From a virus (taxonomy: Duplodnaviria; Caudoviricetes): a DNA stretch of 24,327 nt. The translations under genes and the position numbers were made by a program. The stretch lies in the IMG/VR virus record IMGVR_UViG_3300033141_001877, positions 1 through 24,327 of that record. The stretch is one strand, 5' to 3'. Under the pieces are notes generated by a model. The model made no database searches. It was not told the DNA's origin and saw only the letters and a list, made by a program, of their open reading frames with translations. Of the stretch, positions 1 through 22,058 are shown piece by piece (within the stretch, counting starts at the first letter, position 1; every line of letters begins with the position of its first letter).

Positions 1-169
1 TTACAACGTTTGCAGACTTCAACATAACGCCCGATGTCAGGTCCGGCTTTTTCTCCTGGACTATAACCGGCTTTTTCGGTTTTGTTTTTATGCTGCTCTT
101 ATTCCTTGTTACTTCAAGGCCTTTCTTTTCAACCTTCTTCTTAAGAGCCGCTTGCGACATTCGTTTCAT
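1..169 (-). CDS. Hypothetical Lys-rich protein, 5' part only (runs off the window edge)
   Basis: Read by hand. The ATG at 169 overlaps the TAA of the upstream gene (TAATG). The frame MKRMSQAALKKKVEKKGLEVTRNKSSIKTKPKKPVIVQEKKPDLTSGVMLKSANVV stays open to position 1. Confidence 0.65.
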   Translation of the reverse strand, partial: MKRMSQAALKKKVEKKGLEVTRNKSSIKTKPKKPVIVQEKKPDLTSGVMLKSANVV

Positions 170-3100: not shown

Positions 3101-3492
3101 TACGCCTGGCTCGGTCCTTCTTTTTTCTTGTATGGCTCAGGTTCGCTTTTTGCATAGCTTTTCATGTGTTCCGCTTCACCTATCGCACCCTGGGCCATAT
3201 CTCCTAACCCCTGGGCCGCATTGCGAAACATCTGTGTGCCAACTCTTTTAAATGTGAGTTCTGGGACTAATCCTGTAGCTGGGTCAACTTCGGCATAATC
3301 GGACTCTCCTTGTTCTTCGCCTTCGAACAAAGATTCGCCAAATTCCATGAAGGCACCGGCCATTTGTTTGCCAAGGCCCACAGCCTTTTGAGGCTCTTTC
3401 GGCTCAGGTTCTTCCCCTTCCCAGGTTATCTTTGTTGGATCTATTTCAGGGGGTTCGTTGTACCACGTTATTTTCTTTGGATTAATTGACAT
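169..3492 (-). CDS. Large polyvalent (probably virion-packaged/ejected) protein with an inorganic pyrophosphatase (InPase) domain
   Basis: 1107-aa ORF. The C-terminal third has the polyvalent-protein InPase signature NPSEKQKQAGNYLKG..IENPKGSQRKG...W...M.HHYGY...TEGKDGDQID.FVGP...YIVDQV...FDEHKVM.GF. The N-terminal half is Gly/Ala-rich and helical (GEGLEEYLQQ, GAVGGAMLTGG), as in podovirus DNA-transfer proteins. It lies downstream of the tail genes. Confidence 0.8.
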   Translation of the reverse strand: MSINPKKITWYNEPPEIDPTKITWEGEEPEPKEPQKAVGLGKQMAGAFMEFGESLFEGEEQGESDYAEVDPATGLVPELTFKRVGTQMFRNAAQGLGDMAQGAIGEAEHMKSYAKSEPEPYKKKEGPSQAYELRKPEIAFNVLSDTEKALFGKELRQAEKDKGSPLTSREREDLKRDYSVKIRDESIETYEKWVETLPEPLPGSSGIIETAAGGVSRFGPGMALTALNIPAGTISMFNQIYGQKRKELVDAGIDKELAREIGLLTSAINTPLEQAGSIFQIKMLKTIFSKTGAKMGFGKRLRQFIGVLGANITGEGLEEYLQQYPDEIANLYAANHEKTGAEIAKIVLNEFPAIHKKAKKAMKVGAVGGAMLTGGVQVAGSPFVIADYKRELKANKDEKETDLTRKTEQLKEALDGGQITREQLEGELKDLPKDDILYDAINEVLSTTKPTKAEKPTVEEPTTTDFQTRRRNQEKIKEFEAEQEEDQRVEKLGGIEEQITQAGEFITEKREEDKYWKGVEANIEQQRKEGEIAKGRKKYGARPTTLQQVEVAEEAERQANEKYWATVKTDIQEQQKKRDEGQPPVISEADRRVAKVPAPKKTDVALAGAGTTIELRPTERKSKVDESVGDSVLANSNLFGNRSNTKTLQSESFNSLKRDRQQMILSSVRSSFNDPQVLRAIIKTIPVDVMNGLVGSQWTPDGLLHNKTMLTHRLSIPSDVSIPKPVISFVDSLSSTIKRISARDATEKADLTFPGTPISTKSDSTIKTDILPDGRHIASSKIGDQEIKVDINPSEKQKQAGNYLKGAIHIQGMEIAIENPKGSQRKGVAPDGKKWSIEMKHHYGYFNRTEGKDGDQIDTFVGPDTESPNVYIVDQVEPGTGKFDEHKVMTGFSSEEAAKEGYLANYEEGWQGFGDITEMSVEKFKNWLSWGKQKKPVGYPTESWRSPTDKLEKTKAEKIVQPPASEKGKETWEMTLSEYESLHGKPRKGATSYTENTFHKNAVHTAINQGKPVPESVLKDYPDLQRKALPETPKTEKVAEKAPQEAKALLKREQIEITPEHGKGLKYESEVQISETGEVVKVKEDAGQALEDIDERILSLKILRDCI
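1096..1124 (+). promoter_or_regulatory. Candidate sigma70-type promoter for the antisense HNH gene
   Basis: TTGCTT (1096-1101), 17-bp spacer, TAATAT (1119-1124), ending 40 nt before the ATG at 1165. The consensus match is only partial. Confidence 0.3.
1165..1650 (+). CDS. HNH homing endonuclease (Cys4 zinc finger + HNH_3-type nuclease + C-terminal HTH), nested antisense inside the polyvalent protein gene
   Basis: Motifs CFNC..F...FCCVSC; EHRFVMEQTIGRPLASDEAVHHINGDSLDNRPENL; GFSIRAIAKKIGVSKNTI. An AGAGGA Shine-Dalgarno at 1153-1158 precedes ATG 1165, which I prefer over the TTG at 1096. 161 aa. Confidence 0.85.
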   Translation: MSTIRKYVCFNCGITFSRNWSSRKGQVRFFCCVSCRNSFDCGRKRINETDYRLRYRYVTRNGKPMGEHRFVMEQTIGRPLASDEAVHHINGDSLDNRPENLRIVERGSHRRKYHLLSVPLERIKTLRLQGFSIRAIAKKIGVSKNTITNRLVDLGFPLCRP

Positions 3493-3497
3493 AATTT

Positions 3498-4634
3498 TTA
3501 ATGTTTTGACTCATGATTTTGTTCTTTTGCATACCCATAAGTACCATCATCGTACTGGACTACCTCTTTGCCGTTTTCATCTACACCCCGTTTAACAATC
3601 GTCTTTTGTTGTGGTTTTAAGCTTGTCGATATAAACTTATCAATTTGATATACGTCTTTAAGTCTTTTGGTTTCTTCTGCATTTTTGATCGGATCATATT
3701 TCTTTGTTGGATCCATCCCATCAATTGCTTTTATAAAAGCTGTTACCATATTAGCAGCTTTCTTATCGCCCATAAGCTTTTCCATAGCCTGTTCTTCATT
3801 AAGACCAGGAACAATGCTTGCCATGTATTGAGCGTTCTTCTGTAGTGTCGATCTGGTATCTTTGGCCGATATTGAAGCTTTGATCCGCGCGTTTTTCGTT
3901 ACCAAGGCCGCTGCTCTCATTTCGGTTTGTAGCTTTTCAATCCTTGCATTATCTTTTGCAATCCCGGCTTTCCCCCACTTTGTAGCCGCGTATGGATTGA
4001 GTGAGGATATTCTTGTTTGCGCCTGCTGAATAAGTTTTTGAGGATTGTTTGAGTCAGCTTCAATCTGAGCAATGTTTTTATTATATTGAGCTTGATTGAT
4101 CTGGTTGTCAGCTAAGGCTTCGTCAAGCTTCTCTATCTTTGCCCTTTTCGCTCTTTTGCCGCTTGTGTTAGCAATCGCCCAGGCCTGCACTTCGGGACCA
4201 GCTTCACCATGAATAACAGGCCTATTCGTTCCTTTGTGAAAGTATTTATACTTGCCTGGTTCATCTTTATTAACATCATAATTCAAATCAGTAGCAAGCT
4301 TGTCGATATTAATAGTGCCGTCTTTATTCTTATAGAACATAAATTCAGCGCCTTCGGCTGACCGAACAAGATCTGAAGACGATAATTGCCGATTATAAGC
4401 CTGTGAAGCTGCAACATCTTCTTTGCTTTTCAGCTCGCGCCCTGGTTTTTCCTGTTCGTACATTTCGGATGCTCTATCATCGATCACAGATTGACGGCCT
4501 ATGTCATACTCTTGCTGTCTTCCCCTCAATCCAAGGCTCTTTAATGCTATATCCGACCGGCTTTTATCCCTACCTAAACCACGAACTGTACGAGATAAAA
4601 CATCTAAAGCGTGTACGACTTGTTGATTACCCAT
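3498..4634 (-). CDS. Putative internal virion/ejection protein
   Basis: 378-aa Ala/Gln/Lys-rich helical ORF located between the GNAT-like gene and the large polyvalent gene. The call rests on position and composition. Confidence 0.5.
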   Translation of the reverse strand: MGNQQVVHALDVLSRTVRGLGRDKSRSDIALKSLGLRGRQQEYDIGRQSVIDDRASEMYEQEKPGRELKSKEDVAASQAYNRQLSSSDLVRSAEGAEFMFYKNKDGTINIDKLATDLNYDVNKDEPGKYKYFHKGTNRPVIHGEAGPEVQAWAIANTSGKRAKRAKIEKLDEALADNQINQAQYNKNIAQIEADSNNPQKLIQQAQTRISSLNPYAATKWGKAGIAKDNARIEKLQTEMRAAALVTKNARIKASISAKDTRSTLQKNAQYMASIVPGLNEEQAMEKLMGDKKAANMVTAFIKAIDGMDPTKKYDPIKNAEETKRLKDVYQIDKFISTSLKPQQKTIVKRGVDENGKEVVQYDDGTYGYAKEQNHESKH

Positions 4635-4643
4635 GATCCACCC

Positions 4644-5048
4644 CTACAATTTTTGTGTTATTATTAGATATTGTTTACCATCGCTGGCTGTTCTAAAGCC
4701 TGTGATTAAATAACCTGAAAGAAGCGCTGTAAACAAGGCTTTTTTATTCTTGTTTTCGATATGGCCCATAAGGTGCTTTGCTCCCATCTTCTTAAACGTT
4801 TGGTGAAATTCCTTATTGATTTGTGCCGCCCGCTTTTTGGTCCTGTATTCTGGAAGCATCCCGGTTGCATTGATATAGATTGTGGTGCTGTTGAAAGAAA
4901 ATCCCGCCGTAAAACCATATGTTTTAAACTCGTCTTCGGCTGTAAGCATCACCGGAGGCATTAAAATAGGCGCTTGTTTGTCAAAGCACCCAAAGTATAG
5001 CTTAGGATAAATCTCTTTAATCTCGTTATGATTAAGCCGCTTTATCAT
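4644..5048 (-). CDS. GNAT-family acetyltransferase-like protein
   Basis: 134 aa with the GNAT pattern YGFTAG...IYINATGMLPEYRTKKRA...GAKHLMGHIENKNKKAL...GY. GNAT-like genes are common among podovirus internal-protein genes. Confidence 0.65.
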   Translation of the reverse strand: MIKRLNHNEIKEIYPKLYFGCFDKQAPILMPPVMLTAEDEFKTYGFTAGFSFNSTTIYINATGMLPEYRTKKRAAQINKEFHQTFKKMGAKHLMGHIENKNKKALFTALLSGYLITGFRTASDGKQYLIITQKL

Positions 5049-6223
5049 TTCGCGTCACTTTCTCCGCCACCAGACCCGTCAATATCGGCACTGATACCGC
5101 TAAAATCGTCGTCAAGGTTTTGTGTCCCGGGTGCTGTTGTATCTGGACCGTCTTCTCGCCCTCCAACGTTCCAGCTACCATCATCCTTATATCCGCCGTA
5201 TCTGCTATCAAAGTCCACAACACCTTCCGCGTCCGTTCCTAAAGCTGACATTTCAGAGGGATCAACATCTGCCGCTGCTTGTCGGTCAGCTTGTCGATCA
5301 GACTTTCGATCTCCGAAAACGTCAACCCCGGCTTCAATAGCGGCCATTTCGTTTTCTATTCCTATTCCTGCCGCTTCATATCCTGGTGTCCCAGGGCCAT
5401 GCTTATTGTCCGGTCCCCATGGGTCACTAATATTAAAATCAGCGTCCCCTTCTCTTTCGGCTTGATTTCTGACTCGCTTTGACAGTCCAAACTTATCCGC
5501 CCAGGTAGGATCGTGAGAAATTGCCTCCAAAACCCCTGGGTCTAAATGTTCAGAGGGTGGAGCCGTGTATGCGGCCATAACATCAGGATCTTTTGAATAT
5601 TCATCATAATCTTGTGCTTGCGTTATTTGATCTTGAACATAGGTATCACCAAAACCAAAACCCTGTTCTGAAAAAACATTTTCAAGCTGCTTTCCTCTGT
5701 GTTGCGCATCTGTTGCGGCGTCTACTGCTTTATAAAGACCATATCCAGCGCCATATGTCGGGTTCATCATTGCCGGGACTACTCCGCCAAGTCCTGCATT
5801 AAGATATGCTCCACCCGCAGCGGCCAATAAACCTTTCCCGGCAATTTTTTTACCGAAGCTTTCAAGCTCAGGGTTCATATAGTCCCTGCTCATTCGTGCC
5901 TGGATAGGGTTTGAGTCAGGCATATCTGGCGAGGTAGGGCCTCTGCCTTCGCCTTGCGGATTTGTATCAATTACAGCCCTATCAGGCCTGGTCGGAGCTT
6001 CTACTGTCTCGGCTTCCGGTATAGCCTCATCCGGTATAGCCTCAGCTTCCGGTCTGGACCTTCGCAACCCCAGGCCAACGCCTAATTGTCTTGGATCGAT
6101 ATCACCAGATAGAAGTCTTCGGCTCCGTCTTCCAGTTATCCCGCCCTTCTGCCTGTTTAATCCTTGCCTTTGCGCAAGAGCAATTATACGCTTTAACATT
6201 TCTTCTTTTGATATTGTCTTCAT
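5045..6223 (-). CDS. Putative internal virion/ejection protein with an acidic, low-complexity C-terminus
   Basis: 392 aa: basic N-terminus, a Gly/Ala hydrophobic stretch (GLLAAAGGAYLNAGLGGVVPAM) and an Asp/Gly-rich tail. ATGA overlap with the GNAT-like gene. Confidence 0.5.
   Translation of the reverse strand: MKTISKEEMLKRIIALAQRQGLNRQKGGITGRRSRRLLSGDIDPRQLGVGLGLRRSRPEAEAIPDEAIPEAETVEAPTRPDRAVIDTNPQGEGRGPTSPDMPDSNPIQARMSRDYMNPELESFGKKIAGKGLLAAAGGAYLNAGLGGVVPAMMNPTYGAGYGLYKAVDAATDAQHRGKQLENVFSEQGFGFGDTYVQDQITQAQDYDEYSKDPDVMAAYTAPPSEHLDPGVLEAISHDPTWADKFGLSKRVRNQAEREGDADFNISDPWGPDNKHGPGTPGYEAAGIGIENEMAAIEAGVDVFGDRKSDRQADRQAAADVDPSEMSALGTDAEGVVDFDSRYGGYKDDGSWNVGGREDGPDTTAPGTQNLDDDFSGISADIDGSGGGESDAK
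6015..6044. repeat. Perfect 15-bp in-frame tandem duplication
   Basis: tccggtatagcctca at 6015-6029 and 6030-6044, encoding EAIPD/EAIPE on the minus strand. Confidence 0.9.
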
Positions 6224-6232
6224 AATTTTTTC

Positions 6233-6565
6233 CTAAAAAAAGTCCATTATTGCATCATAGATATCGCCCATAGCCCCGGTTTCACTTAAAATATTAAGCC
6301 CGAGGTTGGCATATCCGAGATTGTTTGCCCTGTTCTGGTGCTTTCTTGCATCGTGAGCTGTCTCGTCGTCTATAGCAAGTTGCTTCTCACCTAAAGCAAA
6401 GTCCCTATCAGCTTGCGCTTCGCTGGCTATAAAAGCTTTTTCGGCAAACTCTTTATCTTTCTTTGCTTGCACCCTGGCAGGAAGATAAGGCGTTTGGGCG
6501 TTTATAATATCTTCAGCGCTTGACCTTCTTCTCAACCCCGTAACTGCTCCTATTTGATCGTACAT
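6233..6565 (-). CDS. Hypothetical protein, putative small ejection protein
   Basis: 110-aa ORF with AGGAG upstream, in the internal-protein region. Confidence 0.55.
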   Translation of the reverse strand: MYDQIGAVTGLRRRSSAEDIINAQTPYLPARVQAKKDKEFAEKAFIASEAQADRDFALGEKQLAIDDETAHDARKHQNRANNLGYANLGLNILSETGAMGDIYDAIMDFF

Positions 6566-6576
6566 GGCTTGATCTC

Positions 6577-7092
6577 CTATTGTTCCATATCGAGGTAATC
6601 AGGAATATCGCCCCTATAATTTTTAAACCGATGAATTCCCAACGTCCCCAGCCTGTCCATGTCTCTAATACCACGGTTAAGACCGGCATTATCATAGCGG
6701 TCATTCATTGTTTCCAGTTCTTCCAGGATCTTATCGTCCCTTCCCTTCTGTTTGTGTGCCCCATATGACGACAAACCAAGATTGCCTAAGCCAATAGCAA
6801 AGGCCTTTTTTCCCTGGCCTTTACCATAAGACAAGTCTCTATCAGCCATAGCGACGCGTTTGTCGGACAGGATATTACGCCTTTTTCTTTCTTTTTGCAG
6901 AGACTTAAACCCTCTTTCTCTGTTGGTATTCTGTGTGTTTAGGATCATGCTTTGAATACCTTTCCTCATGTTTTCGGCTGCGAATTCCGGATCTGCCGAC
7001 ACGGTGCTTAAAATCGCCCTGTGCTCAGGCCTTAAAGTCATAATCTTTTGTCGTGCTCTCTGGTATCTTGGATTGTTGGCCCAGGATCTCAT
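6577..7092 (-). CDS. Hypothetical basic protein, putative internal virion protein
   Basis: 171-aa ORF with GGGAG upstream. Arg/Lys-rich, with a short Gly-rich hydrophobic patch (AFAIGLGNLGLSSYGA). Confidence 0.55.
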   Translation of the reverse strand: MRSWANNPRYQRARQKIMTLRPEHRAILSTVSADPEFAAENMRKGIQSMILNTQNTNRERGFKSLQKERKRRNILSDKRVAMADRDLSYGKGQGKKAFAIGLGNLGLSSYGAHKQKGRDDKILEELETMNDRYDNAGLNRGIRDMDRLGTLGIHRFKNYRGDIPDYLDMEQ

Positions 7093-7095
7093 TGT

Positions 7096-7410
7096 TTAGC
7101 TCCCTTTTTGAAGTTGGATATTTCTTATTTGTTCAAGCGCTTTTTCAACAGCCTTTAAGGTGTCTTTAAGATCTCGATATCTTTTCCTTATTATTTCAGG
7201 CATTTTCGTTTCGTCTGTGCCGTATTGCTTTTCTATATCATATATTTGAGTTGCCGTATCGTTCCGAATATCCCTGTTGATTTTATAATCAAGCCTTAAG
7301 TTGGTGGCATGAAGTTCGGAGGCTTTCGCAAGATATTTTTCAGCGCCAACAACAGCGGTTACGATACTGATAAGAATAACGACTGAGCCTAAAACAGTTT
7401 TAATATTCAT
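7096..7410 (-). CDS. Single-TM protein with coiled-coil C-terminus (possible lysis/holin-type accessory)
   Basis: Start reassigned to ATG 7410 (MNIKTVLGSVVILISIVTAVVGAEKY, AAGGGA upstream), which removes the overlap with the previous gene. Heptad-like tail. Confidence 0.55.
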   Translation of the reverse strand: MNIKTVLGSVVILISIVTAVVGAEKYLAKASELHATNLRLDYKINRDIRNDTATQIYDIEKQYGTDETKMPEIIRKRYRDLKDTLKAVEKALEQIRNIQLQKGS

Positions 7411-7423
7411 CTTGTTTCCCTTC

Positions 7424-7744
7424 TTAGGTATGATTTTCCAACATGCCCTCAATCCTACCTAAAGCCCGGCTCATCTTCTCTTTCCATATCGAATCTTCCC
7501 TCCGGGCTAACTCTCGTTTACCGTCCATTTCTTTCATATCTTTTCTAAAACCGTCGAATTTATCGCATATAGATTTATCAAGTTTAACGTGCGAATCTTT
7601 ACACTCACCTTTAGTAACGTACACTGAAATACCATCCTTTTTATATAAAGCTGTTCTTAAACTGCCCTGGTTTTTGCGAACTTGCCACCACACAAAAGCC
7701 ATCATTCCTGCCAAGACTAATCCTATTATGTCAGTTCCACTCAT
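7424..7744 (-). CDS. Single-TM protein with coiled-coil C-terminus (holin/XhlA-like architecture)
   Basis: IIGLVLAGMMAFVWW transmembrane segment followed by YVTKGEC and a charged coiled coil ending LGRIEGML. Confidence 0.5.
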   Translation of the reverse strand: MSGTDIIGLVLAGMMAFVWWQVRKNQGSLRTALYKKDGISVYVTKGECKDSHVKLDKSICDKFDGFRKDMKEMDGKRELARREDSIWKEKMSRALGRIEGMLENHT

Positions 7745-7919: not shown

Positions 7920-10892
7920 TCAATTCTCCAGATCATCCCTGACGTACTGCCATTGTAATCCCCACACAATCGGCTCAAAGGCTCTCTCAACAGTATTGCC
8001 TGAAAGTTGAAACTTAAACCTGTACGACCATCCATATATATTTAAGGGAGCTGTAACCTTCGCCAACCTGAGATTGTCCGTGGCAAGGCTTATGTCGTTA
8101 AACACCGCACCCCCTGACGTGTTAGCCGTGTCTTGATAATTATAAACATCAAGGGTGTCCTCACTGTTCGCCCTGGTAATAATCTTTATCTGTCGGAGAA
8201 GTGTTTTGTCCCATATATTTTTGGATGGCAAGAAATCACCTGTAGTGAAGCTATAAAGCATTGTCGATCCAAAGCTGTCGCCATATTCTAACCGCATCAT
8301 ATAGCCTGTATCTATTCCGGCATACACATATTTATTACCCTCGCCGTCGGCAACCTGGAACGCAGCTTGTGGCGTTTCCGCTACCCCTGTATATTTTTTA
8401 AACCATTTTTTCTTTACTATATCGTAAGCCAGCCAAAGATTATTAGCGACCTGGGACGAACCGGAGGGGAGGAGGATATTGTATTCTCGATAAGTGGTGT
8501 CATACCAGCCCCTTGCATTTTCTAAATATTCAAAGTTGACACACACAGACTCGGCGGGATCAAAGTATTTATCAACCCCAGGAATAGGGAATAAAACAGA
8601 TCCATCAAACATAACCGGCCCTGAATGAGAAACCCAAAAGGCAACGTTTCTTTGAATACCCTGGACAGCTTCAAATCCAACCTCTGCCGTGGCCAAAGTT
8701 AAGGGAGCTGGACAACCAACCGTAAATGATACCGGAAACACCTTAAAATCTTCGGGAGTATCACCGGTTAAAATGTATGTGCTGGTTTCCTTAAGTGCCA
8801 GCCATATAGCAAAAACATTTGAACCGTATCTATTATAAAGTTGAGTGCCTGCTGTAAGAGTGTCAGAGTTGCCAAAATATAGAGACTGAAGACCGTCCAT
8901 ACTCGAATCAAACCCGTTAAAAACATCTGGTGCGTTCGAGGATGAATAATCAACCCTATTTCCCTCCTTTCCTTCGGTAAAAGCGCACAAAAGCACTCGG
9001 TTTTTATATACAGATGGAAACTTAAAGGGTTTTACGACTTTCTGTGCAGGTATTCCGGTGACAAGATCGACAAGAACCTCTGGATCTTCCGTTAAAGGAA
9101 CGCCCTTTGTCCCGGATAAAGTCGCGCTGAAAGTGAATTGATAGGCATAACCGGTCACACCAAACAACGTTATGGGGTGTTCATCTTCTATGTCAGGCGG
9201 ACTCCAAGAAATTAAGCCTGTCTTTCCAATGGTATCGCCTGCGTTGTCTGTTTCATCTATTAATGATGCACCTACGGTTGCCCAATCTGATCCGGTATGA
9301 TATTTAACAGTAGCGTCCGCCGCGTTTTCATTAATTAACCCCGCAAGCATTTGAAAACGAATACCAGCCATCCGGTCGCTGAACATAACCACAACGTTAT
9401 CTGTGCTTAAAAGGCCGTCTAAAACGCCACCGATAGGAATTTCGATATCTGATTGATAATTAACTGCGAGCGTATAATCTTCGAACTGAGAAGCAGACTC
9501 AACCTGGAACTGTATTGGTTGTCTTAAAACGCCGTCCCATACATCTACAACTGGTTGCCATGGTGCATCGGCTGAAACGTGGGAAATTTCAGCGCTACCG
9601 TCAGAAAGTATAAATAAATAAGCATAAAGGTAAATACCTTCCAAGTGGTACGGTTTGGCTATACTAACCGTTGAATCAAACGTCATTGAGCCGCTTTGCC
9701 CTAATGAATATGAAGTTACCCCTTTCGTGCCGTCGTCGAAGTTTGAAACTCCGGTAAATGCGTCTCCCGTCCATACAGCGCAAAGTGTTTGTGATCCAGC
9801 TGTGTTGACTGTTTTAATTGTATAATTAAAGCCCTGCACTGGCCGAGTAGTGAATATCATCCACAGCTTTCGGGTTCCAATAGGAATGATATTGCCTGCA
9901 GTATCAAGAGAATTATTAGCCTGTTCGGTATAGTCTATTGGATTATTAAAAGGGTAGCCAATGCTTTTAACCGAAAAGTTGTCAAAGTCACCCTCCGCCC
10001 CAAAAATACCAGATTTAAAAGAAAGTCCTCCGGTGCCTTGGGCAAGATAAGGAAGTGAGTATGCCCCGTTAGAATTAACAGAGCCTATTCTATAAGTATA
10101 TGCTTCTTCAAAAGTCCAATAATCTTCAATGTTTGCAGCATCAAAGGCAATGCGGTATAGATGCCCGGTTGTCATGGGTACATATGTGCTTGAAATGCCG
10201 CCTTCCAGACCAGATGTGCTTGCTGTTATGCTAAGATCGTCGGTTTCGTCCCATGAGGTAAGGTTGAAATTCTCCCAATTTGACGGCGACGAAAAGTCTC
10301 GATTTTCCTGGGCGGGTATTAGTTCGGAGCCCAACTGTTCTTCTACGGTAAACAGAGCCCCAATCCTGATTTCCTCGCCGCCGTAGATATAAGACTCTTT
10401 TCCATTACAATATGCCACGTTGCCTTGCGGAGCGTCTGAAAACCGGCCCAACCCTGCGCCTGCTGCGTCGATATGTATCGGCGCAGTTTCAAAGTTTCCC
10501 TGAGCTGGGACTACAGCTAAGTTTTGGAAGACTCTGCCGTTTCCTGAGCTGTCTTGTGAGTTAACAAGAACGTATGACTTTTGCGCTCCGTCTGTCCTGA
10601 GCTGGTGTCCATTTCTAATATCTGTGTACGTTGTAATGATAGATGTTGAAATTTCCGTATAGCCCAGCACTCCAACAGGATGGTTTGCGCCATACCGCAG
10701 ATTTACAATATCTGAAAAGTTTGAAGGTCCTATTTCCGCCGGGTCGTGATCAGGTAGCCATGCACCATCAAGCTTGAATTGCTCTTTGTGCAGCTTATCA
10801 TCTGGAATTTGAGACTGTTTTTGCTGTTCTTGTGCCAAAGCTCCTGAAAACAGAAAGAAAAACAGCGATATGTATATAAGTAATTTTTTCAT
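7920..10892 (-). CDS. Putative tail nozzle / tail tubular protein B-like protein with an N-terminal signal peptide and inserted beta-sandwich domains
   Basis: 990 aa, beta-rich, directly after the adaptor genes. It has a nozzle-like N-terminus (F.LDGAWLPDHDPAEIG...SDIVNL), propeller-like segments (YKNRVLL, VGCPAPLTL, FWVSHSGPVMFDG, WLAYDIVKKKW) and a typical C-terminus (FTTGDF...KTLLRQIKI...YRFKFQ). Starts MKKLLIYISLFFFLFSGALA. Confidence 0.7.
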   Translation of the reverse strand: MKKLLIYISLFFFLFSGALAQEQQKQSQIPDDKLHKEQFKLDGAWLPDHDPAEIGPSNFSDIVNLRYGANHPVGVLGYTEISTSIITTYTDIRNGHQLRTDGAQKSYVLVNSQDSSGNGRVFQNLAVVPAQGNFETAPIHIDAAGAGLGRFSDAPQGNVAYCNGKESYIYGGEEIRIGALFTVEEQLGSELIPAQENRDFSSPSNWENFNLTSWDETDDLSITASTSGLEGGISSTYVPMTTGHLYRIAFDAANIEDYWTFEEAYTYRIGSVNSNGAYSLPYLAQGTGGLSFKSGIFGAEGDFDNFSVKSIGYPFNNPIDYTEQANNSLDTAGNIIPIGTRKLWMIFTTRPVQGFNYTIKTVNTAGSQTLCAVWTGDAFTGVSNFDDGTKGVTSYSLGQSGSMTFDSTVSIAKPYHLEGIYLYAYLFILSDGSAEISHVSADAPWQPVVDVWDGVLRQPIQFQVESASQFEDYTLAVNYQSDIEIPIGGVLDGLLSTDNVVVMFSDRMAGIRFQMLAGLINENAADATVKYHTGSDWATVGASLIDETDNAGDTIGKTGLISWSPPDIEDEHPITLFGVTGYAYQFTFSATLSGTKGVPLTEDPEVLVDLVTGIPAQKVVKPFKFPSVYKNRVLLCAFTEGKEGNRVDYSSSNAPDVFNGFDSSMDGLQSLYFGNSDTLTAGTQLYNRYGSNVFAIWLALKETSTYILTGDTPEDFKVFPVSFTVGCPAPLTLATAEVGFEAVQGIQRNVAFWVSHSGPVMFDGSVLFPIPGVDKYFDPAESVCVNFEYLENARGWYDTTYREYNILLPSGSSQVANNLWLAYDIVKKKWFKKYTGVAETPQAAFQVADGEGNKYVYAGIDTGYMMRLEYGDSFGSTMLYSFTTGDFLPSKNIWDKTLLRQIKIITRANSEDTLDVYNYQDTANTSGGAVFNDISLATDNLRLAKVTAPLNIYGWSYRFKFQLSGNTVERAFEPIVWGLQWQYVRDDLEN

Positions 10893-11569
10893 TATTGCGT
10901 GGGCTCCTTCGGCATAGTAAGAAAGTCTTGCCTACTTCTATCAAGCTCCGCCTGGTACAGCGCCATGATCTTGGCAGATTTTTCCATCTGGTTGCTTTTG
11001 GCCCAGGCCTGGGCAACAACATACATAACAAGTGCTTTATCGTATATTGCTGGAATCGGAATTGAAGCGCTTATAATAATAGCCTCGGGCCTGGTTACTA
11101 AATAAACAGTAATTTTTTCAGTGGTTACGCCGGTCAATGCAGGATAAGCGCCAAGTTTCCCGGCCCAATCGTACCAATAAGCAGGCTCTCCTATGTTGCT
11201 TACAAGGCCGACACTTTCCGGAGCACCCCTGATAAGAGCTTTCGATACACCTGTTGCCGAAACATAATGAACCGCTTTTACAACAATATAGGTTGATGTA
11301 ATTGCATATTCGGTTTGATTTGCAATCAGGCTGATATCTTCTGTATTTTCGAGGCAGTGGCTTCTACTAACCAGGTCCACAAGACCGTCATTGAGCCAAC
11401 GCAACAGCCTTTCATCATTCCAAAATACATCTGAACCTGTGCCGCTAAGATACGATCTTGCGTTTTCGATTATTGTTTCGGCTGTCGTTGAGGACGTTTG
11501 CTGAGATCCTGCAAAAGCTGAAACCGTTATAAATAAAGCGATAATTATTATAGATATTTTTTTCAGCAT
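10892..11569 (-). CDS. Phage head-tail adaptor/tail ring protein (DUF6682-like), paralog 2, with signal peptide
   Basis: Adaptor pattern TIIENARSYL...FWNDERLLRWLNDG...L.ANQTEYAI...P.YWY...YP...IPAIYDKALVMYVVAQAWAK. Starts MLKKISIIIIALFITVSAFA. Confidence 0.75.
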   Translation of the reverse strand: MLKKISIIIIALFITVSAFAGSQQTSSTTAETIIENARSYLSGTGSDVFWNDERLLRWLNDGLVDLVSRSHCLENTEDISLIANQTEYAITSTYIVVKAVHYVSATGVSKALIRGAPESVGLVSNIGEPAYWYDWAGKLGAYPALTGVTTEKITVYLVTRPEAIIISASIPIPAIYDKALVMYVVAQAWAKSNQMEKSAKIMALYQAELDRSRQDFLTMPKEPTQ

Positions 11570-11587
11570 AATAAACCTCTTTTGAAT

Positions 11588-12262
11588 TTATTGTTTCGGC
11601 TTTTCCGTTGTTACAAGAAGATCCTGCCGGTACCGATCAAGTTCAGCATGATATCGGCCTATCGCCTGGCCATATTTACTCATTTGCCTATCCTTCGCCC
11701 AGGCCTGAGCAACAATGTATAAAGTAAGCGCTTTGTCATATATTGCCGGAGTCGGCACAGCGACACCGGAAGCTATGGCCGTAGGTCTTGTTACGAGGTA
11801 AAGAGTAACCTTTTCGCTCGTAACGCTGCTAAGAGTAGGATAAACCCCTATTTCCCCGGCCCAATCATACCAATGCACAGGCACCTGCACGTTTTCAATC
11901 CAGCCAACTTCCGCCGGTTTTCCTGTTTTCAACCCTCTTTCTATATCGTTAGAGTCAACATATCGTACTGCTTTCACGACAAGATAGGTTGATGTAATGG
12001 AATATTCCACCTGGTTCGCGACAAGATTGATATCTTCTGTATCTTCGAGGCAATGACTCCGGCCTACTAAATCAACAAGACCATCGTTAAGCCACTGTAA
12101 CATTTCAACATCGGTCCAAAACGTAGCCGTTGCTTCGTTTAGATATGCCCTGGCATTTACAATGATTGCTGATGCAAGAGTTGAAGACGCTTGCTGAGAT
12201 CCCGCGTGAGCAAAACTCACAGCCATAAAAACGATTAAAATTGCATGAATGATTTTTTTCAT
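11588..12262 (-). CDS. Phage head-tail adaptor/tail ring protein (DUF6682-like), paralog 1, with signal peptide
   Basis: Same pattern (IIVNARAYLNE...FWTDVEMLQWLNDG...PAIYDKALTLYIVAQAWAKD). Start reassigned to ATG 12262 (GAAGGT upstream, 1 nt after the previous stop). Starts MKKIIHAILIVFMAVSFAHA. Confidence 0.75.
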   Translation of the reverse strand: MKKIIHAILIVFMAVSFAHAGSQQASSTLASAIIVNARAYLNEATATFWTDVEMLQWLNDGLVDLVGRSHCLEDTEDINLVANQVEYSITSTYLVVKAVRYVDSNDIERGLKTGKPAEVGWIENVQVPVHWYDWAGEIGVYPTLSSVTSEKVTLYLVTRPTAIASGVAVPTPAIYDKALTLYIVAQAWAKDRQMSKYGQAIGRYHAELDRYRQDLLVTTEKPKQ

Positions 12263-12610: not shown

Positions 12611-13201
12611 TTAAGCTGCTGTGTCGCCTTCGATCCTGATCGTGAAGTCAACCGCTGCCGCTGCCGGAGCCGCCGCACCTATAATCCGCTTAATCCATAC
12701 GAATATAAGTTCATTAACACCCAGGTTAACGTCATGCGCACCAAGATCAATCGAAACGCCTGTTGCATATGATGTGGCCGTTGACCAATCACTTATACCT
12801 GAACCGGTCCCGTTATGATTCGTAGTGTCAATATCAGACGGCTCGGTAGATTCGTCTACTATTGATTGAGCATCCCCGTCTGTAAGGCCTGTCGTCTCGG
12901 GCACTTCCACTGCAAACTCTATGGAATTACCGCCTCCAACGTCGCCCTCTTGTATAAAAACCTTCGCGTTTTGGAGCTCCAAAGAACCGTGTTTATTCTG
13001 AATACAAAAACATCGATACTCGGTATCTCCCGGTTCTGATTCGGCCCCTTCAACATCGTCAAACAGGTTTTCATCTGTATCATCAACAATCTCTGAAGAT
13101 GATCTATAGCTCCCAAGGGAAGCGTCAGGGTCAGCCTGTACGCCGCCGTCAGACCCGGCACCTGTCAAAAATTTATCTAAGTCGCCCGCTACAATAGCCA
13201 T
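12611..13201 (-). CDS. Hypothetical acidic beta-rich virion protein
   Basis: 196 aa with an AAGGAG RBS. The motifs SLG...S..EI..NLFDDV...E...GDTEYRC and VWIKR resemble a phage hypothetical family I recall but cannot name. Confidence 0.6.
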   Translation of the reverse strand: MAIVAGDLDKFLTGAGSDGGVQADPDASLGSYRSSSEIVDDTDENLFDDVEGAESEPGDTEYRCFCIQNKHGSLELQNAKVFIQEGDVGGGNSIEFAVEVPETTGLTDGDAQSIVDESTEPSDIDTTNHNGTGSGISDWSTATSYATGVSIDLGAHDVNLGVNELIFVWIKRIIGAAAPAAAAVDFTIRIEGDTAA

Positions 13202-13203
13202 GG

Positions 13204-13440
13204 TTAATCTCCTTTATGAAAGTAATTTTTAATATGGTAAAGCGCCCTTCTAAGCTTCCATCGTATTCCCGGAAATAAAATCGTTTTAACAATCTTGCCA
13301 TTTTTCAGCTTTGCAAAAGATCCCGGCCATACCGCCTTTTCATCTTTAAAGTCTTTATATCTGAAGGCTATCTTTCTACCATTGCTTATTTGATAGAACC
13401 CCTTGCCTGTTTGTGGATCGTATCTGTCAATTTTTATCAT
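13204..13440 (-). CDS. Small basic protein with a cold-shock/OB-fold-like N-terminus
   Basis: 78 aa, coupled to the upstream gene (TAATG). KIDRYDPQTGKGFYQISNGRKIAFRYKDF parallels the cold-shock pattern VKWFNxxKGFGFIxxxxGxDVFVHFS. Confidence 0.45.
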   Translation of the reverse strand: MIKIDRYDPQTGKGFYQISNGRKIAFRYKDFKDEKAVWPGSFAKLKNGKIVKTILFPGIRWKLRRALYHIKNYFHKGD

Positions 13441-15809
13441 TAGTCCAACCTCGTTGATAAGCCTAATCTATTTAAGCCCTTTCCAGCCCCAGCATCCGAA
13501 AAGACATCATAAACAATATTGGCGTCCGAAAGAGCTTTGGTTGATTCTATATCAAAGACGAGTTCCAGGTCGCTTAGAGTCTTTATATTAATGTCAAAAA
13601 CATGCTCCGAGTCAGAATTCATTTTATTAAGAACATCGAATAGCGCTTCCAGATCCGAATTAACTTTGTTGTATATATCGTAAACAGCTTCAAGATCCGA
13701 ATCCATCTTTTCGAATTGATCATAAACAAGTTCCAGGTCACTTAGAATCCTATGATAAACGTCATATTTAAGAACAGAGTCGGCATTTATCTTATTTAGA
13801 ACGTCGAAAACAAACTCAATGGACGAATCGATTCTGCCGATCATGTCATAAACAAGCTCTGAGTCCGACGTTACCTTGCCCACTACATCAAAAACGGCCT
13901 CAATATCGCTTGATATCTTTTCGAATTGATCATATTTAAGGGTAATATCAGCATAAATTGAATTTAAAACGTCAAAAACTCCCTCAATATCAGAGGAAAT
14001 AATATTTTTAACGTCATATACGAGCTCTGAGTCGGACGAGACTTGCCCGGCCTGGTCATAAACCGCCTCCATATCGCTTGATACACTCTCGCGCTGATCA
14101 TAAACGATAATCGAGTCTGCCCTGACTGTGTTGATAATATCAAATACCATCTCAACATCAGATCTTGCCACGCTAAATATATCAAAGACCGCTTCAATGT
14201 CAGATATAACCCAGCCCCAAGTATCATAGACAAGCTCTAAATCAGAGGATACCTTGTTAAATATATCAAAGACCGCTTCAGCATCGGAAGATATCTTGTT
14301 GCGCACATCATAAACCGTCTCAATGTCGGAATTTATCTTGTTAAATATGTCAAACACTGACTCTGAGTCAGAGGTTGTCCTCCCGGACTGATCATAAACA
14401 AGCTCAACGTCTGATGTTATTTTATTATAAACGTCAAAGACCAACTCGACATCGGAAGCAAGCTTATTGTAAACATCAAAAAGCGATTCTGAATCCGACG
14501 TTATCCTGGAATAACCGTCATATACAAGTTCGAGGTCGGAAGTAACTTTCGTCGTGCCAGAGGCAGGCGTAAAAACAATAGTAAGATCTGCATCACCTTC
14601 AAGCCACCAAATCCTTTGATTATATGCGCTGTTAACATCTTCCCAAACAAATGCCAACTTGTCGCCACTTTCAAAAGGATCTGCACCATCATCGCCATCA
14701 ATTCTTTGCTGAATAAACAAATTTAACTCTGGACTGTCTTGGCTTCCAGTGCTTCCTTCATCCCAATCTACCGTCACAGAAGTATGTTTCGTTAACTGAG
14801 AAGGTCTGTTGCTTGAGCCCCACGTTCCGGGAGATCTGTTATCAATCAACTTAAGAATAGCGTCGCAACCAGAGCCATCAACTCCGGTTACATCGATATT
14901 TATCTTTGTTCCGGTGTTTATTGTTGCTCCCGGCAAATCAGTGTCGGTAACTGTCCACATAAGACCGGAGTCAAGCACAGAGTCTTCGAAATCACCACAA
15001 ACAATATAGCCGACGTTATCATCGTACCAGGTAGTATCATCTTGTTCGAAACCGTCGTCAGCATCCGTTACAGTAGTTGGTCCCCAAGTATCAGGGCTTA
15101 CAACTATATCGTCATTATCCGAAAGACTAAAAGCACCTATAAAAATATCAAGCTTCTTGCCGCCTGCCTGATCCTCAACGGTGTAGTTCGAATGTATATC
15201 TATTTCGTCAGAGTCCCATTGAAACTTAATATTATCAAAAAGCAGCTTATAAATCCCAAGATTGTCGCCGCTTAAAGTTGTGGTCGGAACTTCAACCATA
15301 TCACCGGCAATACCTGAATTTTGAAACCTGATCCGATAGAGATTCGCGTTAACCACATGAAGGCGGAAAGTATTTTTGACTTTCTCGAACGGTCTGAAAA
15401 GAAACTCAACGTCAAGAGTGTTGCCGTCGCCATCAGAAAGATTACGGGTAATTACGCAATGCTCGTCTTGCTGGTCTACCGTCAACCCTATCTGCCACAA
15501 ATCAAGTGTGCGCCATTGTGGAGCATCCCAATACTGGACCTCAAACCTTTGATCATCTATAAGAGTCTCAATAGAACCAAACTCCCGAATGATCTGATAG
15601 CCTGCTGAATAAAACTCACAAGACAGCTCTCCGTAACGGATAGACTGACTTGGTTCATCCCATACATAGGGAGCGAAAACACCATCACCAAGATCAACGT
15701 TTTTCCGGCCCATAAAGGTTTTAAGCACCCTCTGGCCTGTGTCCTGGCCGTCCTGAGTAACCTTAAACTTACGGCAATCTGGCGTATATGTTAGGTGTTC
15801 CAGTGGCAT
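13440..15809 (-). CDS. Putative fibre/adhesin protein: two N-terminal beta domains plus a 25 x 14-aa repeat stalk
   Basis: 789 aa, very acidic. The middle domain resembles DNRLRE/CBM96-like sandwiches (DADDGFE...G...SGLMW...LPGATI...SPEL...IQQ...DLTIVF). The C-terminal ~350 aa are tandem repeats. Confidence 0.6.
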   Translation of the reverse strand: MPLEHLTYTPDCRKFKVTQDGQDTGQRVLKTFMGRKNVDLGDGVFAPYVWDEPSQSIRYGELSCEFYSAGYQIIREFGSIETLIDDQRFEVQYWDAPQWRTLDLWQIGLTVDQQDEHCVITRNLSDGDGNTLDVEFLFRPFEKVKNTFRLHVVNANLYRIRFQNSGIAGDMVEVPTTTLSGDNLGIYKLLFDNIKFQWDSDEIDIHSNYTVEDQAGGKKLDIFIGAFSLSDNDDIVVSPDTWGPTTVTDADDGFEQDDTTWYDDNVGYIVCGDFEDSVLDSGLMWTVTDTDLPGATINTGTKINIDVTGVDGSGCDAILKLIDNRSPGTWGSSNRPSQLTKHTSVTVDWDEGSTGSQDSPELNLFIQQRIDGDDGADPFESGDKLAFVWEDVNSAYNQRIWWLEGDADLTIVFTPASGTTKVTSDLELVYDGYSRITSDSESLFDVYNKLASDVELVFDVYNKITSDVELVYDQSGRTTSDSESVFDIFNKINSDIETVYDVRNKISSDAEAVFDIFNKVSSDLELVYDTWGWVISDIEAVFDIFSVARSDVEMVFDIINTVRADSIIVYDQRESVSSDMEAVYDQAGQVSSDSELVYDVKNIISSDIEGVFDVLNSIYADITLKYDQFEKISSDIEAVFDVVGKVTSDSELVYDMIGRIDSSIEFVFDVLNKINADSVLKYDVYHRILSDLELVYDQFEKMDSDLEAVYDIYNKVNSDLEALFDVLNKMNSDSEHVFDINIKTLSDLELVFDIESTKALSDANIVYDVFSDAGAGKGLNRLGLSTRLD
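13494..14546 (-). repeat. Coding tandem repeat, 25 units of 42 bp / 14 aa
   Basis: Consensus (I/V)xSD(L/I/S)E(L/A)V(Y/F)D(V/I/Q)xxK. Counted from VTSDLELVYDGYSR to ALSDANIVYDVFSD: 351 codons = 25 x 14 + 1. Confidence 0.9.
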
Positions 15810-16657
15810 TAGATCCGCGTTTTAATCCTTTTCACATCGCTTAAATTGTTTGATTCAGCACTTGACCTGAAATCCCCCGCAGACTCAATACAGTTGGCCC
15901 ATAAGGCTTTGTGATTTTTGTTCACCAGGTACTTATCAGGATAGTGCTGAGTGCCGAATTTGGGTAGTTTAATGAGGCCGATCACACCGTAAGACACAAT
16001 TCCGTAATGAAATCGATCTGGAATATCTGTAATTGCGATGGGCAACGTGATATATTCGATTATGATATCATTTTCAAAGGTAACATCGTCTATAACAAGG
16101 TTTCTAACCCTGGTATAATATGTATCAAAATCATAATTGCTTGATTCTCCCAGCGGTTTACGGACTATTTTTGAGAAATTCGCTGTTTCCCTGAAAGCTT
16201 TTCCTCCTGAAGTATAGGTGTTTTCAAACACCGAGCCGTCAAGCGTATAGTTCAGGGTATCAATAACAGTGATTGCAAAGGTGTCGTTAGCTTCGACCGT
16301 CCCGCCAATGTCGTGATGTGTGACAATGTGGCCAGTTTCCCAGGGATGAACAGAATTAAGAGTAATCTTTATCCCGCCCGAACCATCATCAACCGCACCA
16401 CTCACAACCAAAGCATTGTCACCCATATCTTTAACATCTGAGAATTCATATATACTTGAAGGTAGGATAAAGATATTAGTGAGGGATGAAAGGGATTTTC
16501 GGACATTGAAATAGGTGGGGTTAGCTCCGACAAGCTTCAAGCCGAGGAGGTTAACGGCATCAGCTATTACTCGCGTAAAATCGTCGGAGCCAACCCTGAC
16601 GGCTCCGATTTCCCTTATATCTCTGCGTATTAACCGTTCAATTTCAATAGCATCCAT
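15809..16657 (-). CDS. Head-tail adaptor-like protein with an inserted FCCH-like beta domain (no signal peptide)
   Basis: Adaptor-like ends (EIERLIRRDIRE...VIADAVN; DIPDRFHYGIVSYG) flank KITLNSVHPWETGHIV...IGGTVEAN.TFAITVID...YTLDGS...YTSGG, the phage E1-FCCH-like motif. Confidence 0.6.
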   Translation of the reverse strand: MDAIEIERLIRRDIREIGAVRVGSDDFTRVIADAVNLLGLKLVGANPTYFNVRKSLSSLTNIFILPSSIYEFSDVKDMGDNALVVSGAVDDGSGGIKITLNSVHPWETGHIVTHHDIGGTVEANDTFAITVIDTLNYTLDGSVFENTYTSGGKAFRETANFSKIVRKPLGESSNYDFDTYYTRVRNLVIDDVTFENDIIIEYITLPIAITDIPDRFHYGIVSYGVIGLIKLPKFGTQHYPDKYLVNKNHKALWANCIESAGDFRSSAESNNLSDVKRIKTRI

Positions 16658-20912: not shown

Positions 20913-21007
20913 ACTTTCTCCCCTTTTTCAAACTTTTCAAGCAGCTTCACAAGGTGTAAGGCTATTCTTTTTAATATCTTAACGATTGTTTTTGTTTCTT
21001 CAGTCAT
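20909..21007 (-). CDS. 32-aa amphipathic helical peptide (absent from the ORF track)
   Basis: Read by hand: MTEETKTIVKILKRIALHLVKLLEKFEKGEKV. Coupled at both ends (TAATG and TTGA). Confidence 0.65.
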   Translation of the reverse strand: MTEETKTIVKILKRIALHLVKLLEKFEKGEKV

Positions 21008-21963: not shown

Positions 21964-22058
21964 TAAATTCCTCCCCTAAATACAAGCTGCGCGATACCAA
22001 ACAGTATCAATGCAAACAAAAAGCCCACTGCAAAGTCTATCAATTTGGTCCAGCTCAT
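21963..22058 (-). CDS. 31-aa single-TM peptide (absent from the ORF track)
   Basis: Read by hand: MSWTKLIDFAVGFLFALILFGIAQLVFRGGI. The ATG overlaps the portal stop (ATGA) and the TAA overlaps the next ATG. Confidence 0.65.
   Translation of the reverse strand: MSWTKLIDFAVGFLFALILFGIAQLVFRGGI

What the first reader, a model, noticed from the sequence alone, without database searches (positions are those of the whole stretch)
7920..12262. Three consecutive core tail proteins carry cleavable Sec-type signal peptides: a tail hub possibly built outside the cytoplasm
Seen: both adaptor/ring paralogs and the nozzle begin with exactly 20 residues of n-region (KK), hydrophobic h-region and an A-x-A site: MKKIIHAILIVFMAVSFAHA|GSQQ, MLKKISIIIIALFITVSAFA|GSQQ and MKKLLIYISLFFFLFSGALA|QEQQ. 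The leaders have diverged in sequence but kept this architecture. The portal, capsid, scaffold and the third adaptor-like gene (15809-16657) have no such leader. Established: in model podoviruses (P22 gp4/gp10, T7 gp11/gp12) these parts are cytoplasmic and have no signal peptide. Inference: the distal tail may be exported and assembled in the periplasm or at the membrane, then joined to filled heads at or after inner-membrane disruption. This could time maturation, hide tail proteins from cytoplasmic defence sensors, or support a non-canonical exit route.
Basis: partly seen in the sequence, partly recalled or inferred. Interest (0 to 1): 0.9.

Follow-up and report, generated by a model that had tools for sequence, protein, structure and literature searches.

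The report
Phage tail core carries export signals
In this short-tailed phage, and in many relatives including a prophage of a cultured sulfate-reducing bacterium, the two outer neck rings and the tail nozzle begin with a bacterial secretion-type leader that the head proteins lack, so the tail tip is likely made outside the cytoplasm and would join the DNA-filled head only as the cell breaks open, a route I found described for no tailed phage.

Summary
Confirmed. The three genes encode two SU10-type adaptor rings and a podovirus nozzle (predicted folds match solved tails). Each starts with a 20-residue Sec/SPase-I-type leader. Portal, capsid, scaffold, first ring and ejection proteins have none. 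The leader is a whole-module trait: of 57 loci, adaptor and nozzle both carry it in 23 and both lack it in 34 (two hand corrections; one odd locus set aside). It switched at least 7-11 times on the nozzle tree, and leaderless orthologues often start exactly at the predicted cut. A cultured Desulfatibacillum aliphaticivorans carries a leader-bearing prophage (Dalk_4550/4551), so the idea is testable. Best reading (0.6): the distal tail is exported, cleaved, assembled in the periplasm and docks on filled heads once the holin opens the inner membrane. The genome has an ordinary lysis cassette, which argues against non-lytic exit. SignalP could not be run; export, cleavage and site of assembly are untested; how heads hold DNA meanwhile is open. 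No glycosylation signal in this phage. No paper found in ten searches. This scan has reported the same trait before in other genomes.

The parts
11588..12262 (-). Adaptor ring paralogue 1 (224 aa) with 20-residue Sec-type leader; probably the second neck ring
   Evidence: PF24175 SU10_adaptor E 1.5e-18 from residue 31; phrog_399; ring order inferred from gene order
12203..12262 (-). Leader of adaptor paralogue 1 (codons 1-20, ends Ala-His-Ala)
10892..11569 (-). Adaptor ring paralogue 2 (225 aa) with 20-residue leader; probably the ring that holds the nozzle
   Evidence: PF24175 E 3.2e-19 from residue 28; AlphaFold model pLDDT 82.8 matches adaptors of cyanophage A4, GP4, KHP30, SU10 (Foldseek E 1.7e-9 to 6e-8); profile hit to GP4 12-mer ring 8jov_2
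11510..11569 (-). Leader of adaptor paralogue 2 (codons 1-20, ends Ala-Phe-Ala)
7920..10892 (-). Tail nozzle (990 aa) with 20-residue leader and an inserted beta domain near residues 185-310
   Evidence: AlphaFold model pLDDT 88.1; best Foldseek matches are tail chains of A4 (E 1.9e-18), SU10 (8e-17) and the crAss001 muzzle (8.4e-17), TM 0.35-0.39; no Pfam or PHROG hit
10833..10892 (-). Leader of the nozzle (codons 1-20, ends Ala-Leu-Ala)
15809..16657 (-). Leaderless first adaptor ring (282 aa) with an FCCH-like insert; predicted cytoplasmic docking partner on the portal
   Evidence: Atlas nearest clusters are SU10 adaptor proteins, score 0.98, structure TM 0.54-0.66; profile-profile match to the other rings is weak (P 0.1); 0 of 16 homologues have a leader
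22055..24109 (-). P22-like portal, no leader
   Evidence: PF16510 E 1.3e-104
18768..19907 (-). Acidic scaffold-like protein, no leader
   Evidence: position between portal and capsid, composition; no family hit
17659..18744 (-). Major capsid protein, no leader
   Evidence: phrog_334 E 5.2e-93; PF13252
17145..17585 (-). Capsid decoration-like protein, no leader here; 2 of 12 homologues carry one
   Evidence: phrog_486 weak
12611..15809 (-). Fibre-like repeat protein (789 aa), 78-aa ORF and 196-aa partner; all leaderless
   Evidence: function inferred from position and repeats
7096..7744 (-). Two small single-helix membrane proteins (105 and 106 aa) after the nozzle; role unknown
   Evidence: no family hits above cut-off
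169..7092 (-). Ejection-protein-like genes (171, 110, 392, 378, 1107 aa) and a 134-aa ORF; all leaderless
   Evidence: position before a 3643-aa DarB-like gene; role inferred; 0 of 20, 0 of 19 and 0 of 12 homologues of three of them have a leader

Best explanation
The three genes encode the two outer neck rings and the nozzle of a short-tailed phage, and each begins with a Sec-type leader that likely sends the protein across the inner membrane, where signal peptidase I is predicted to cut after residue 20, so that the tail tip would assemble in the periplasm and would join DNA-filled heads when lysis opens the inner membrane. Steps: (1) shown: the parts are adaptor and nozzle homologues in the structural operon, the only such copies found in the contig apart from the leaderless first ring; (2) shown: the leader pattern, its restriction to distal or surface parts, its all-or-none distribution; (3) inferred, strong (about 0.85): Sec export and cleavage, giving the same N-terminus that leaderless relatives get by starting there; (4) inferred (about 0.7 given step 3): procapsid, ejection proteins, packaging and the first ring stay cytoplasmic, and filled heads are held shut by the portal or first ring; (5) inferred: holin holes that release the cytoplasmic amidase also let heads meet pre-built ring-nozzle units before or as the outer membrane fails. 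Why do it: most likely to keep these folds away from cytoplasmic sensors and tail-assembly blockers, with periplasmic modification as an added use in some relatives; purpose untested.
For: Folds and families. Leader in 29 of 33 adaptor homologues incl. the two own, 111 of the best 150 clusters at 50% identity (the profile included the leader, so this is biased upward) and 41 of 120 nozzle homologues. Adaptor-nozzle concordance in 57 loci: 22 both, 34 neither, 1 filter miss whose adaptor does have a leader; on the tree all usable contrasts agree but there are only 5 starred pairs (p 0.06). At least 11 changes forced on a 176-row FastTree, 7 on a 36-row IQ-TREE subset, one clade rejected. Leaderless orthologues start at the predicted -1 position in 18 of 79 printed comparisons and one residue before it in 7 more; locus L020/L060 lacks the leader on five genes at once with in-frame stops just upstream of the ring, nozzle, fibre and post-capsid genes. 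Position -1 is Ala or Gly in 26 of 30 curated adaptors. No conserved internal start: 0 of 31 adaptors, 2 of 23 nozzles. Head and ejection homologues never carry it. Lysis cassette with leaderless amidase. T7's closed portal holds DNA briefly before the tail binds (PMC6702177, passages).
Against: No experiment and no SignalP run; calls rest on my own rules. The T7 valve is described for a brief interval and reopens when the adaptor binds, so a head with its first ring but no nozzle should leak unless this first ring or another protein plugs it; no plug was identified. No independent mark of periplasmic residence: N-x-S/T sequons are not enriched (ratio 1.17 with leader, 1.13 without), nor D-S/T-x motifs; cysteine is lower with leader (5.7 vs 9.3 per 1000) but not after tree correction (10 of 14 contrasts, p 0.18). 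Locus L055/L056 breaks the rule: leaderless ring, nozzle leader without a standard start codon, fibres with leaders. The window's nozzle has a TTG at codon 19 close behind AGGA (2 of 23 nozzles). No evidence that this phage makes infectious particles. The link to the binned host is weak.
Confidence: 0.6

Rival explanations
1. Membrane staging on the inside: the leaders engage Sec or the membrane only as tethers or slow-export signals; a working fraction stays on the cytoplasmic side, is trimmed by another protease (for example the phage's C14 peptidase), and tails join heads in the cytoplasm as usual.
For: Solves the DNA-retention problem; the contig encodes a caspase-family peptidase (PF00656); no periplasmic signature in the mature parts.
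Against: Lys-rich n-region plus Ala-x-Ala is the signal peptidase I pattern, whose site lies on the outer face (established knowledge); the cut site has no Asp or Arg as C14 enzymes prefer (recalled); all-or-none switching fits a change of compartment; the Desulfatibacillum provirus showed no such peptidase among the ORFs I looked at (by eye only).
Confidence: 0.15
2. Export for modification: the main purpose is glycosylation or another periplasmic modification of the virion surface; late joining is the price, not the aim.
For: Six O-antigen-ligase-like genes (PF04932; 4 over the cut-off) in five distinct related phages, several directly beside a leader-bearing gene, one in the Desulfatibacillum provirus; leader-bearing decoration-like genes occur even where the tail is leaderless (L036, L058).
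Against: No PF04932 and no STT3 match in this contig or its bin (bin 87% complete); no sequon excess; inner rings are poor surface targets; one of the five phages (L036) has a leaderless nozzle.
Confidence: 0.12
3. Non-lytic or two-step exit: heads cross the inner membrane by budding or extrusion and are finished in the periplasm of a living cell.
For: Would give time and concentration for docking; two unexplained small membrane proteins follow the nozzle gene.
Against: Amidase endolysin, holin-like two-helix ORF and a lipoprotein are present; the provirus has an M15 peptidase; no extrusion machinery among 58 proteins scanned; the two membrane genes are seen only in the closest relatives.
Confidence: 0.06
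4. Repurposed or dispensable proteins: exported ring and nozzle copies block receptors or incoming phage, and the phage takes its tail from a helper or is defective.
For: No cultured relative and no proof of particle formation.
Against: They are the only nozzle and distal rings found, full length, in the usual operon position, in at least 23 distinct loci with several different capsid types; the nozzle core is conserved as in leaderless relatives.
Confidence: 0.04
5. Wrong starts or dual start: translation begins at or after the predicted cut, so a leaderless form is what builds the tail.
For: A TTG at codon 19 of the nozzle with AGGA three bases upstream, in this phage and its closest relative.
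Against: Ribosome-binding sites and stop-start coupling at the annotated ATGs; no alternative start codon in the leader of adaptor 2 or the following 12 codons; 0 of 31 adaptors with a supported internal start.
Confidence: 0.03

Closest known systems
Multi-ring podovirus tails: Kuravirus SU10 (gp11 adaptor, gp17 nozzle), Ralstonia phage GP4, phi24B (gp64 and gp62 rings, gp57 nozzle), cyanophage A4, crAss001 (rings R1-R5, muzzle)
   Same: Same folds and the same order portal - rings - nozzle; P22-like portal and N4-gp56-type capsid; ejection-type genes downstream (passages of PMC9509320, 10.64898/2026.04.10.717836, PMC10172136 read).
   Different: No signal peptide is mentioned in the passages read; the GP4 ring aligns from its residue 5 to profile position 30, so it lacks the leader. 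Here two rings and the nozzle carry one.
Filamentous phages (Ff pIII, pVIII)
   Same: Virion proteins with Sec or YidC-type leaders that are cut by signal peptidase I (established knowledge, recalled).
   Different: Those are membrane-anchored coat proteins of a non-lytic ssDNA phage; here the mature parts are soluble tail rings of an HK97-type dsDNA phage with a lysis cassette.
Signal-peptide and SAR endolysins of tailed phages
   Same: A tailed phage using host Sec late in infection (PMC8951688, passages).
   Different: Lysis enzymes, not virion parts; this phage's amidase has no leader.
Post-lysis or in-vitro addition of parts (P22 tailspike, T4 fibres and Soc/Hoc)
   Same: Shows that parts can dock on finished heads without cytoplasmic help (recalled, not checked in a call).
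   Different: Those parts are made in the cytoplasm and are not the DNA seal; here the sealing nozzle itself has the leader.

Membership tests
SU10-type adaptor (PF24175) | Profile match over the curated cut-off | tested here: met
   70.6 and 68.4 bits against cut-off 27
SU10-type adaptor (PF24175) | Helix bundle plus beta-sandwich fold | tested here: met
   Model of paralogue 2, Foldseek TM 0.57-0.66 to adaptor chains
SU10-type adaptor (PF24175) | Dodecameric ring stacked on portal or another ring | not tested
Podovirus nozzle (T7 gp12, P22 gp10, SU10 gp17) | Beta-propeller nozzle fold; best structural matches are nozzle chains | tested here: met
   Top Foldseek ranks are all phage tail chains, E 1.9e-18 to 2.4e-8; whole-chain TM only 0.35-0.39 because of inserts; no sequence match in PDB
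Podovirus nozzle (T7 gp12, P22 gp10, SU10 gp17) | Gene directly after the adaptor, before ejection genes | tested here: met
Sec / signal peptidase I signal peptide | Positive n-region, uncharged h-region, small residues at -3 and -1 | tested here: met
   Sequence; rule-based scores; -1 Ala or Gly in 26 of 30 adaptors
Sec / signal peptidase I signal peptide | Leader is the true translated N-terminus | tested here: met
   Ribosome-binding sites, stop-start coupling, no conserved internal start; sequence-level test only
Sec / signal peptidase I signal peptide | SignalP-class prediction; SecA-dependent translocation; cleavage in vivo | not testable with these tools
   No SignalP among the tools; needs experiment
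Lipoprotein (SPase II) or Tat signal | Lipobox Cys or twin-arginine motif | tested here: not met
   Absent from the three leaders
Periplasmic glycoprotein substrate | Excess of glycosylation sequons, or a transferase gene in phage or bin | tested here: not met
   bin incomplete, true host uncertain
Non-lytic secreted phage (inovirus-like) | No lysis genes; extrusion ATPase | tested here: not met
   Amidase endolysin present; terminase, portal, HK97-type capsid

The most novel reading that the evidence does not exclude
A two-compartment assembly line for tailed phages: heads are filled and capped with one ring in the cytoplasm, the DNA-sealing tail tip is secreted and built in the periplasm, and the virion is completed only when lysis mixes the compartments. 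Phages switch this route on and off by adding or dropping leaders on the whole module, likely to dodge cytoplasmic sensors of adaptor and nozzle folds.
Probability: 0.55. Interest if true: 0.93.

Novelty: categorically new. Interest (0 to 1): 0.85.

Why it matters
Tailed phages are taught to be built wholly in the cytoplasm. Export of the nozzle, the part that seals the DNA, would mean a different morphogenesis route with an unknown way of holding DNA in unfinished heads and a lysis step that doubles as an assembly step. It would also be a counter-defence by compartment: Avs12 and Avs13 sense exactly these two folds. The parts are ordinary; the route is what is new. The trait is common in a large uncultured lineage, switches often, and occurs in a prophage of a cultured Desulfatibacillum, while another strain of that species has a leaderless relative, which gives a natural control.

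Tried and rejected
Glycosylation as the reason in this phage: no sequon excess, no transferase found. Disulfide or cysteine signature: fewer, not more, cysteines, and not significant on the tree. Single origin of the leader on the nozzle tree: rejected. Dual start: not supported. Host link by shared sequence: no shared 25-mer between the contig and the rest of the bin, composition rank 95 of 108; no 16S in the bin. Prophage relatives in the host's class: 0 of 400 other genomes searched; adaptor scan of genome contigs gave none, nozzle scan four short MAG contigs. Cultured phages: no nozzle match, two weak adaptor hits. Sequencing runs: none was listed. Complex prediction of first ring with the exported ring: tool not available, no result. 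PDB sequence search for the nozzle: nothing. Profile comparison of first ring with distal rings: weak. Literature: ten searches gave no paper on signal peptides in core tail proteins; seen as listings with abstract starts except the papers opened; the library lacks most subscription papers, and no supplements were opened.


Full report
Setting. The window is part of a 62,246-base contig in a metagenome bin. The contig is a nearly whole phage genome: terminase subunits, P22-like portal, N4-gp56-type capsid, a 3643-aa DarB-like gene, replication genes, and a helicase split across both ends. No integrase was seen among the 58 proteins scanned. The bin is a sulfate reducer (dsrA) with two signal peptidase I genes over the cut-off, but the phage-host link is only the binning: no shared 25-mer, composition rank 95 of 108 contigs.

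Observation. The three ORFs and their leaders are as described. Ribosome-binding sites and stop-start coupling support the annotated ATGs. I had no SignalP, so I wrote a rule (basic n-region, hydrophobic 9-mer, small residues at -3 and -1). It flags 6 of 54 genes in the contig, among them these three in a row, and 235 of 2055 genes in the rest of the bin.

What the proteins are. Both 224-225-aa proteins match PF24175 from residue 28-31 on. A model of the second matches adaptor chains of A4, GP4, KHP30, N4 and SU10. The 990-aa protein has no family hit, but its model (pLDDT 88) is closest to tail chains of A4, SU10, crAss001, P22 and T7 (low whole-chain TM because of inserted domains). The leaderless 282-aa gene falls among SU10-adaptor clusters in the Atlas, although its profile match to the other rings is weak. 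In both models the residues around the predicted cut have the lowest confidence, as expected for a leader and linker. So the layout is portal, one leaderless ring, two leader-bearing rings, leader-bearing nozzle. Ring order is inferred from gene order. Two- to five-ring tails are known from phi24B and crAss001 (passages).

Spread. The leader is in 29 of 33 adaptor homologues including the two own, 111 of the best 150 clusters of a profile search that found 3302 hits (biased because the profile held the leader), and 41 of 120 listed nozzle homologues. In viral contigs it sits on adaptors, nozzles and often the fibre genes after the nozzle, in phages with several visibly different capsid genes (judged by eye from N-termini and BLAST to the window's capsid). 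Homologues of the head and core genes lack it: portal 0 of 4, scaffold 0 of 6, first ring 0 of 16, three ejection-type genes 0 of 20, 19 and 12; the one capsid-labelled hit of 21 is a small Tat-like ORF, not a capsid gene.

All or none. From 102 loci I removed 30 as redundant or partial, 3 had no nozzle, 11 no detected adaptor, and L055 was set aside. Of the 57 left, 22 have leaders on both nozzle and adjacent adaptor, 34 on neither, and one (L076) was a filter miss whose adaptor plainly has a leader. L061 was corrected by hand from a false call at an upstream ATG. Kin are not independent: only 5 well-supported independent pairs exist; they agree, p 0.06. L055/L056 is the exception: a leaderless ring, a nozzle leader with no standard start codon, and fibres with leaders; it may be a loss in progress or an assembly error.

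Repeated switching. A tree of 176 nozzle cores, N-termini left out, needs 15 changes, at least 11 on starred branches (55 with leader, 113 without, 8 unscored; some database entries may have miscalled starts). A 36-row IQ-TREE subset, chosen after seeing the first tree and mostly from loci where I could see the DNA, needs 10, at least 7; one clade of leader-bearers is rejected (the subset choice favours this). The root is unknown, so gains and losses cannot be told apart, but L020/L060 sits next to a leader-bearing sister and lacks leaders on five genes.

The cut site. Leaderless orthologues tend to begin where the leader is predicted to be cut: Met at the -1 position in 18 of 79 printed comparisons and one residue earlier in 7 (rows are not independent, four are misfiled leader-bearing genes, most others start 4-9 residues later). 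Adaptors P0020 and P0026 begin Met-Gly-Ser-Gln and Met-Ala-Ser-Gln. After Met removal these give the same N-terminus as cleavage would. This is the best sequence-level evidence for a real cut. No supported internal start exists in 31 adaptors and only 2 of 23 nozzles show a doubtful one, this phage among them.

A cultured host. Locus L054 is a provirus whose adaptor, nozzle and capsid are Dalk_4551, Dalk_4550 and a neighbour in Desulfatibacillum aliphaticivorans (that the Dalk tag means strain AK-01 is recalled). It has a leaderless SU10 ring, then leader-bearing ring and nozzle, further leader-bearing genes, an M15 peptidase and an O-antigen-ligase-like gene. Another record of the same species (L048) and Desulfocurvibacter africanus have leaderless nozzles. 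So the trait is not forced by an unusual host cell plan.

How it most likely works. Sec exports the two rings and the nozzle; signal peptidase I cuts them; they fold and oligomerise in the periplasm. Everything that must be inside or on the head before and during packaging has no leader and stays in the cytoplasm. The genome has a leaderless amidase, a 61-aa two-helix holin-like ORF and a lipoprotein (holin role by look only), so the inner membrane must be opened for lysis; that would let heads and tail tips meet. The weak step is DNA retention. T7's portal closes for a brief time before the tail binds and reopens on adaptor binding (PMC6702177, passages), and the nozzle or muzzle is the lasting gate in T7 and crAss001. 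Here the portal, the first ring or an unknown plug would have to hold for longer.

Why. Avs12 and Avs13 sense portal adaptor and tail nozzle (10.64898/2026.01.04.697583, passages), and Tai systems block tail assembly (PMC11364771, abstract); export would take these folds out of reach, though the first ring remains. Earlier scan notes pointed to glycosylation and paired cysteines. I tested both. Sequons are not enriched, cysteines are fewer and not significantly so on the tree, and neither this contig nor the bin shows a transferase. But six ligase-like genes occur in five related phages, often beside a leader-bearing gene, and decoration-like genes carry leaders even in phages with leaderless tails (L036, L058), which suggests a stepwise path from optional surface parts to the core tail.

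Novelty. Ten literature searches found no description; most hits were seen only as listings, eight papers as passages or abstract, no supplements. No cultured phage is close. This scan has noted the same trait in other genomes; those are unchecked notes, and none was a look-alike of this sequence. The parts are ordinary podovirus proteins; the implied route lies outside known tailed-phage assembly. Leader real: near certain. Export and cleavage: about 0.85. Assembly outside the cytoplasm with joining at lysis: about 0.6. Interest 0.85.

Noticed in passing
window 21007-21288 (-): 93-aa ORF with a twin-arginine (Tat-like) leader (TIGR01409 just under cut-off) whose C-terminal half matches the N-terminus of the major capsid family (phrog_334, E 7e-6).
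   Followed up: partly
window 13440-15809 (-): 789-aa protein whose last 360 residues are near-perfect 14-residue repeats of a Ser-Asp-x-Glu-x-Val-Tyr/Phe-Asp type; leaderless; likely a fibre or whisker.
   Followed up: no
window 169-3492 (-), about 1096-2035: The 1107-aa ejection-type gene holds an insert of host-like text (residues about 630-790) before an InPase domain, and an HNH-HTH ORF lies inside it on the opposite strand (1096-1650, +).
   Followed up: no
window 20160-20912 (-): Polynucleotide-kinase-like AAA plus HAD phosphatase gene between portal and scaffold.
   Followed up: no
L104:4703-5560 (-), outside the window: Caspase-family (C14) peptidase inside the lysis cassette, between amidase and lipoprotein.
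   Followed up: partly
L023:991-2172, L036:1823-2959, L055:2629-4853, L065:1656-2783, L111:12986-14359: Phage-borne O-antigen-ligase-like membrane proteins (PF04932) in or near head modules, mostly beside a leader-bearing gene.
   Followed up: partly
L058:7437-7964 and L069: Capsid decoration-like protein (homologue of window 17145-17585) with a Sec-type leader in phages whose tail is leaderless.
   Followed up: partly
L055:9990-10060: Nozzle leader present in frame but without a standard start codon, behind a leaderless ring; downstream fibres keep leaders.
   Followed up: partly
L048:8311-13243 and L031: Nozzle split into separate genes in a leaderless Desulfatibacillum prophage and a Desulfobacterales MAG contig.
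   Followed up: no
window 15809-16657 (-), residues 96-154: FCCH-like domain (as in ubiquitin E1 enzymes) inserted in the first ring; also in some distal rings and nozzles of relatives.
   Followed up: partly
L004, L005, L025, L082 head modules: Glycosyltransferase- and sugar-enzyme-like genes between capsid and first ring in several leader-bearing phages (judged from N-termini only).
   Followed up: no
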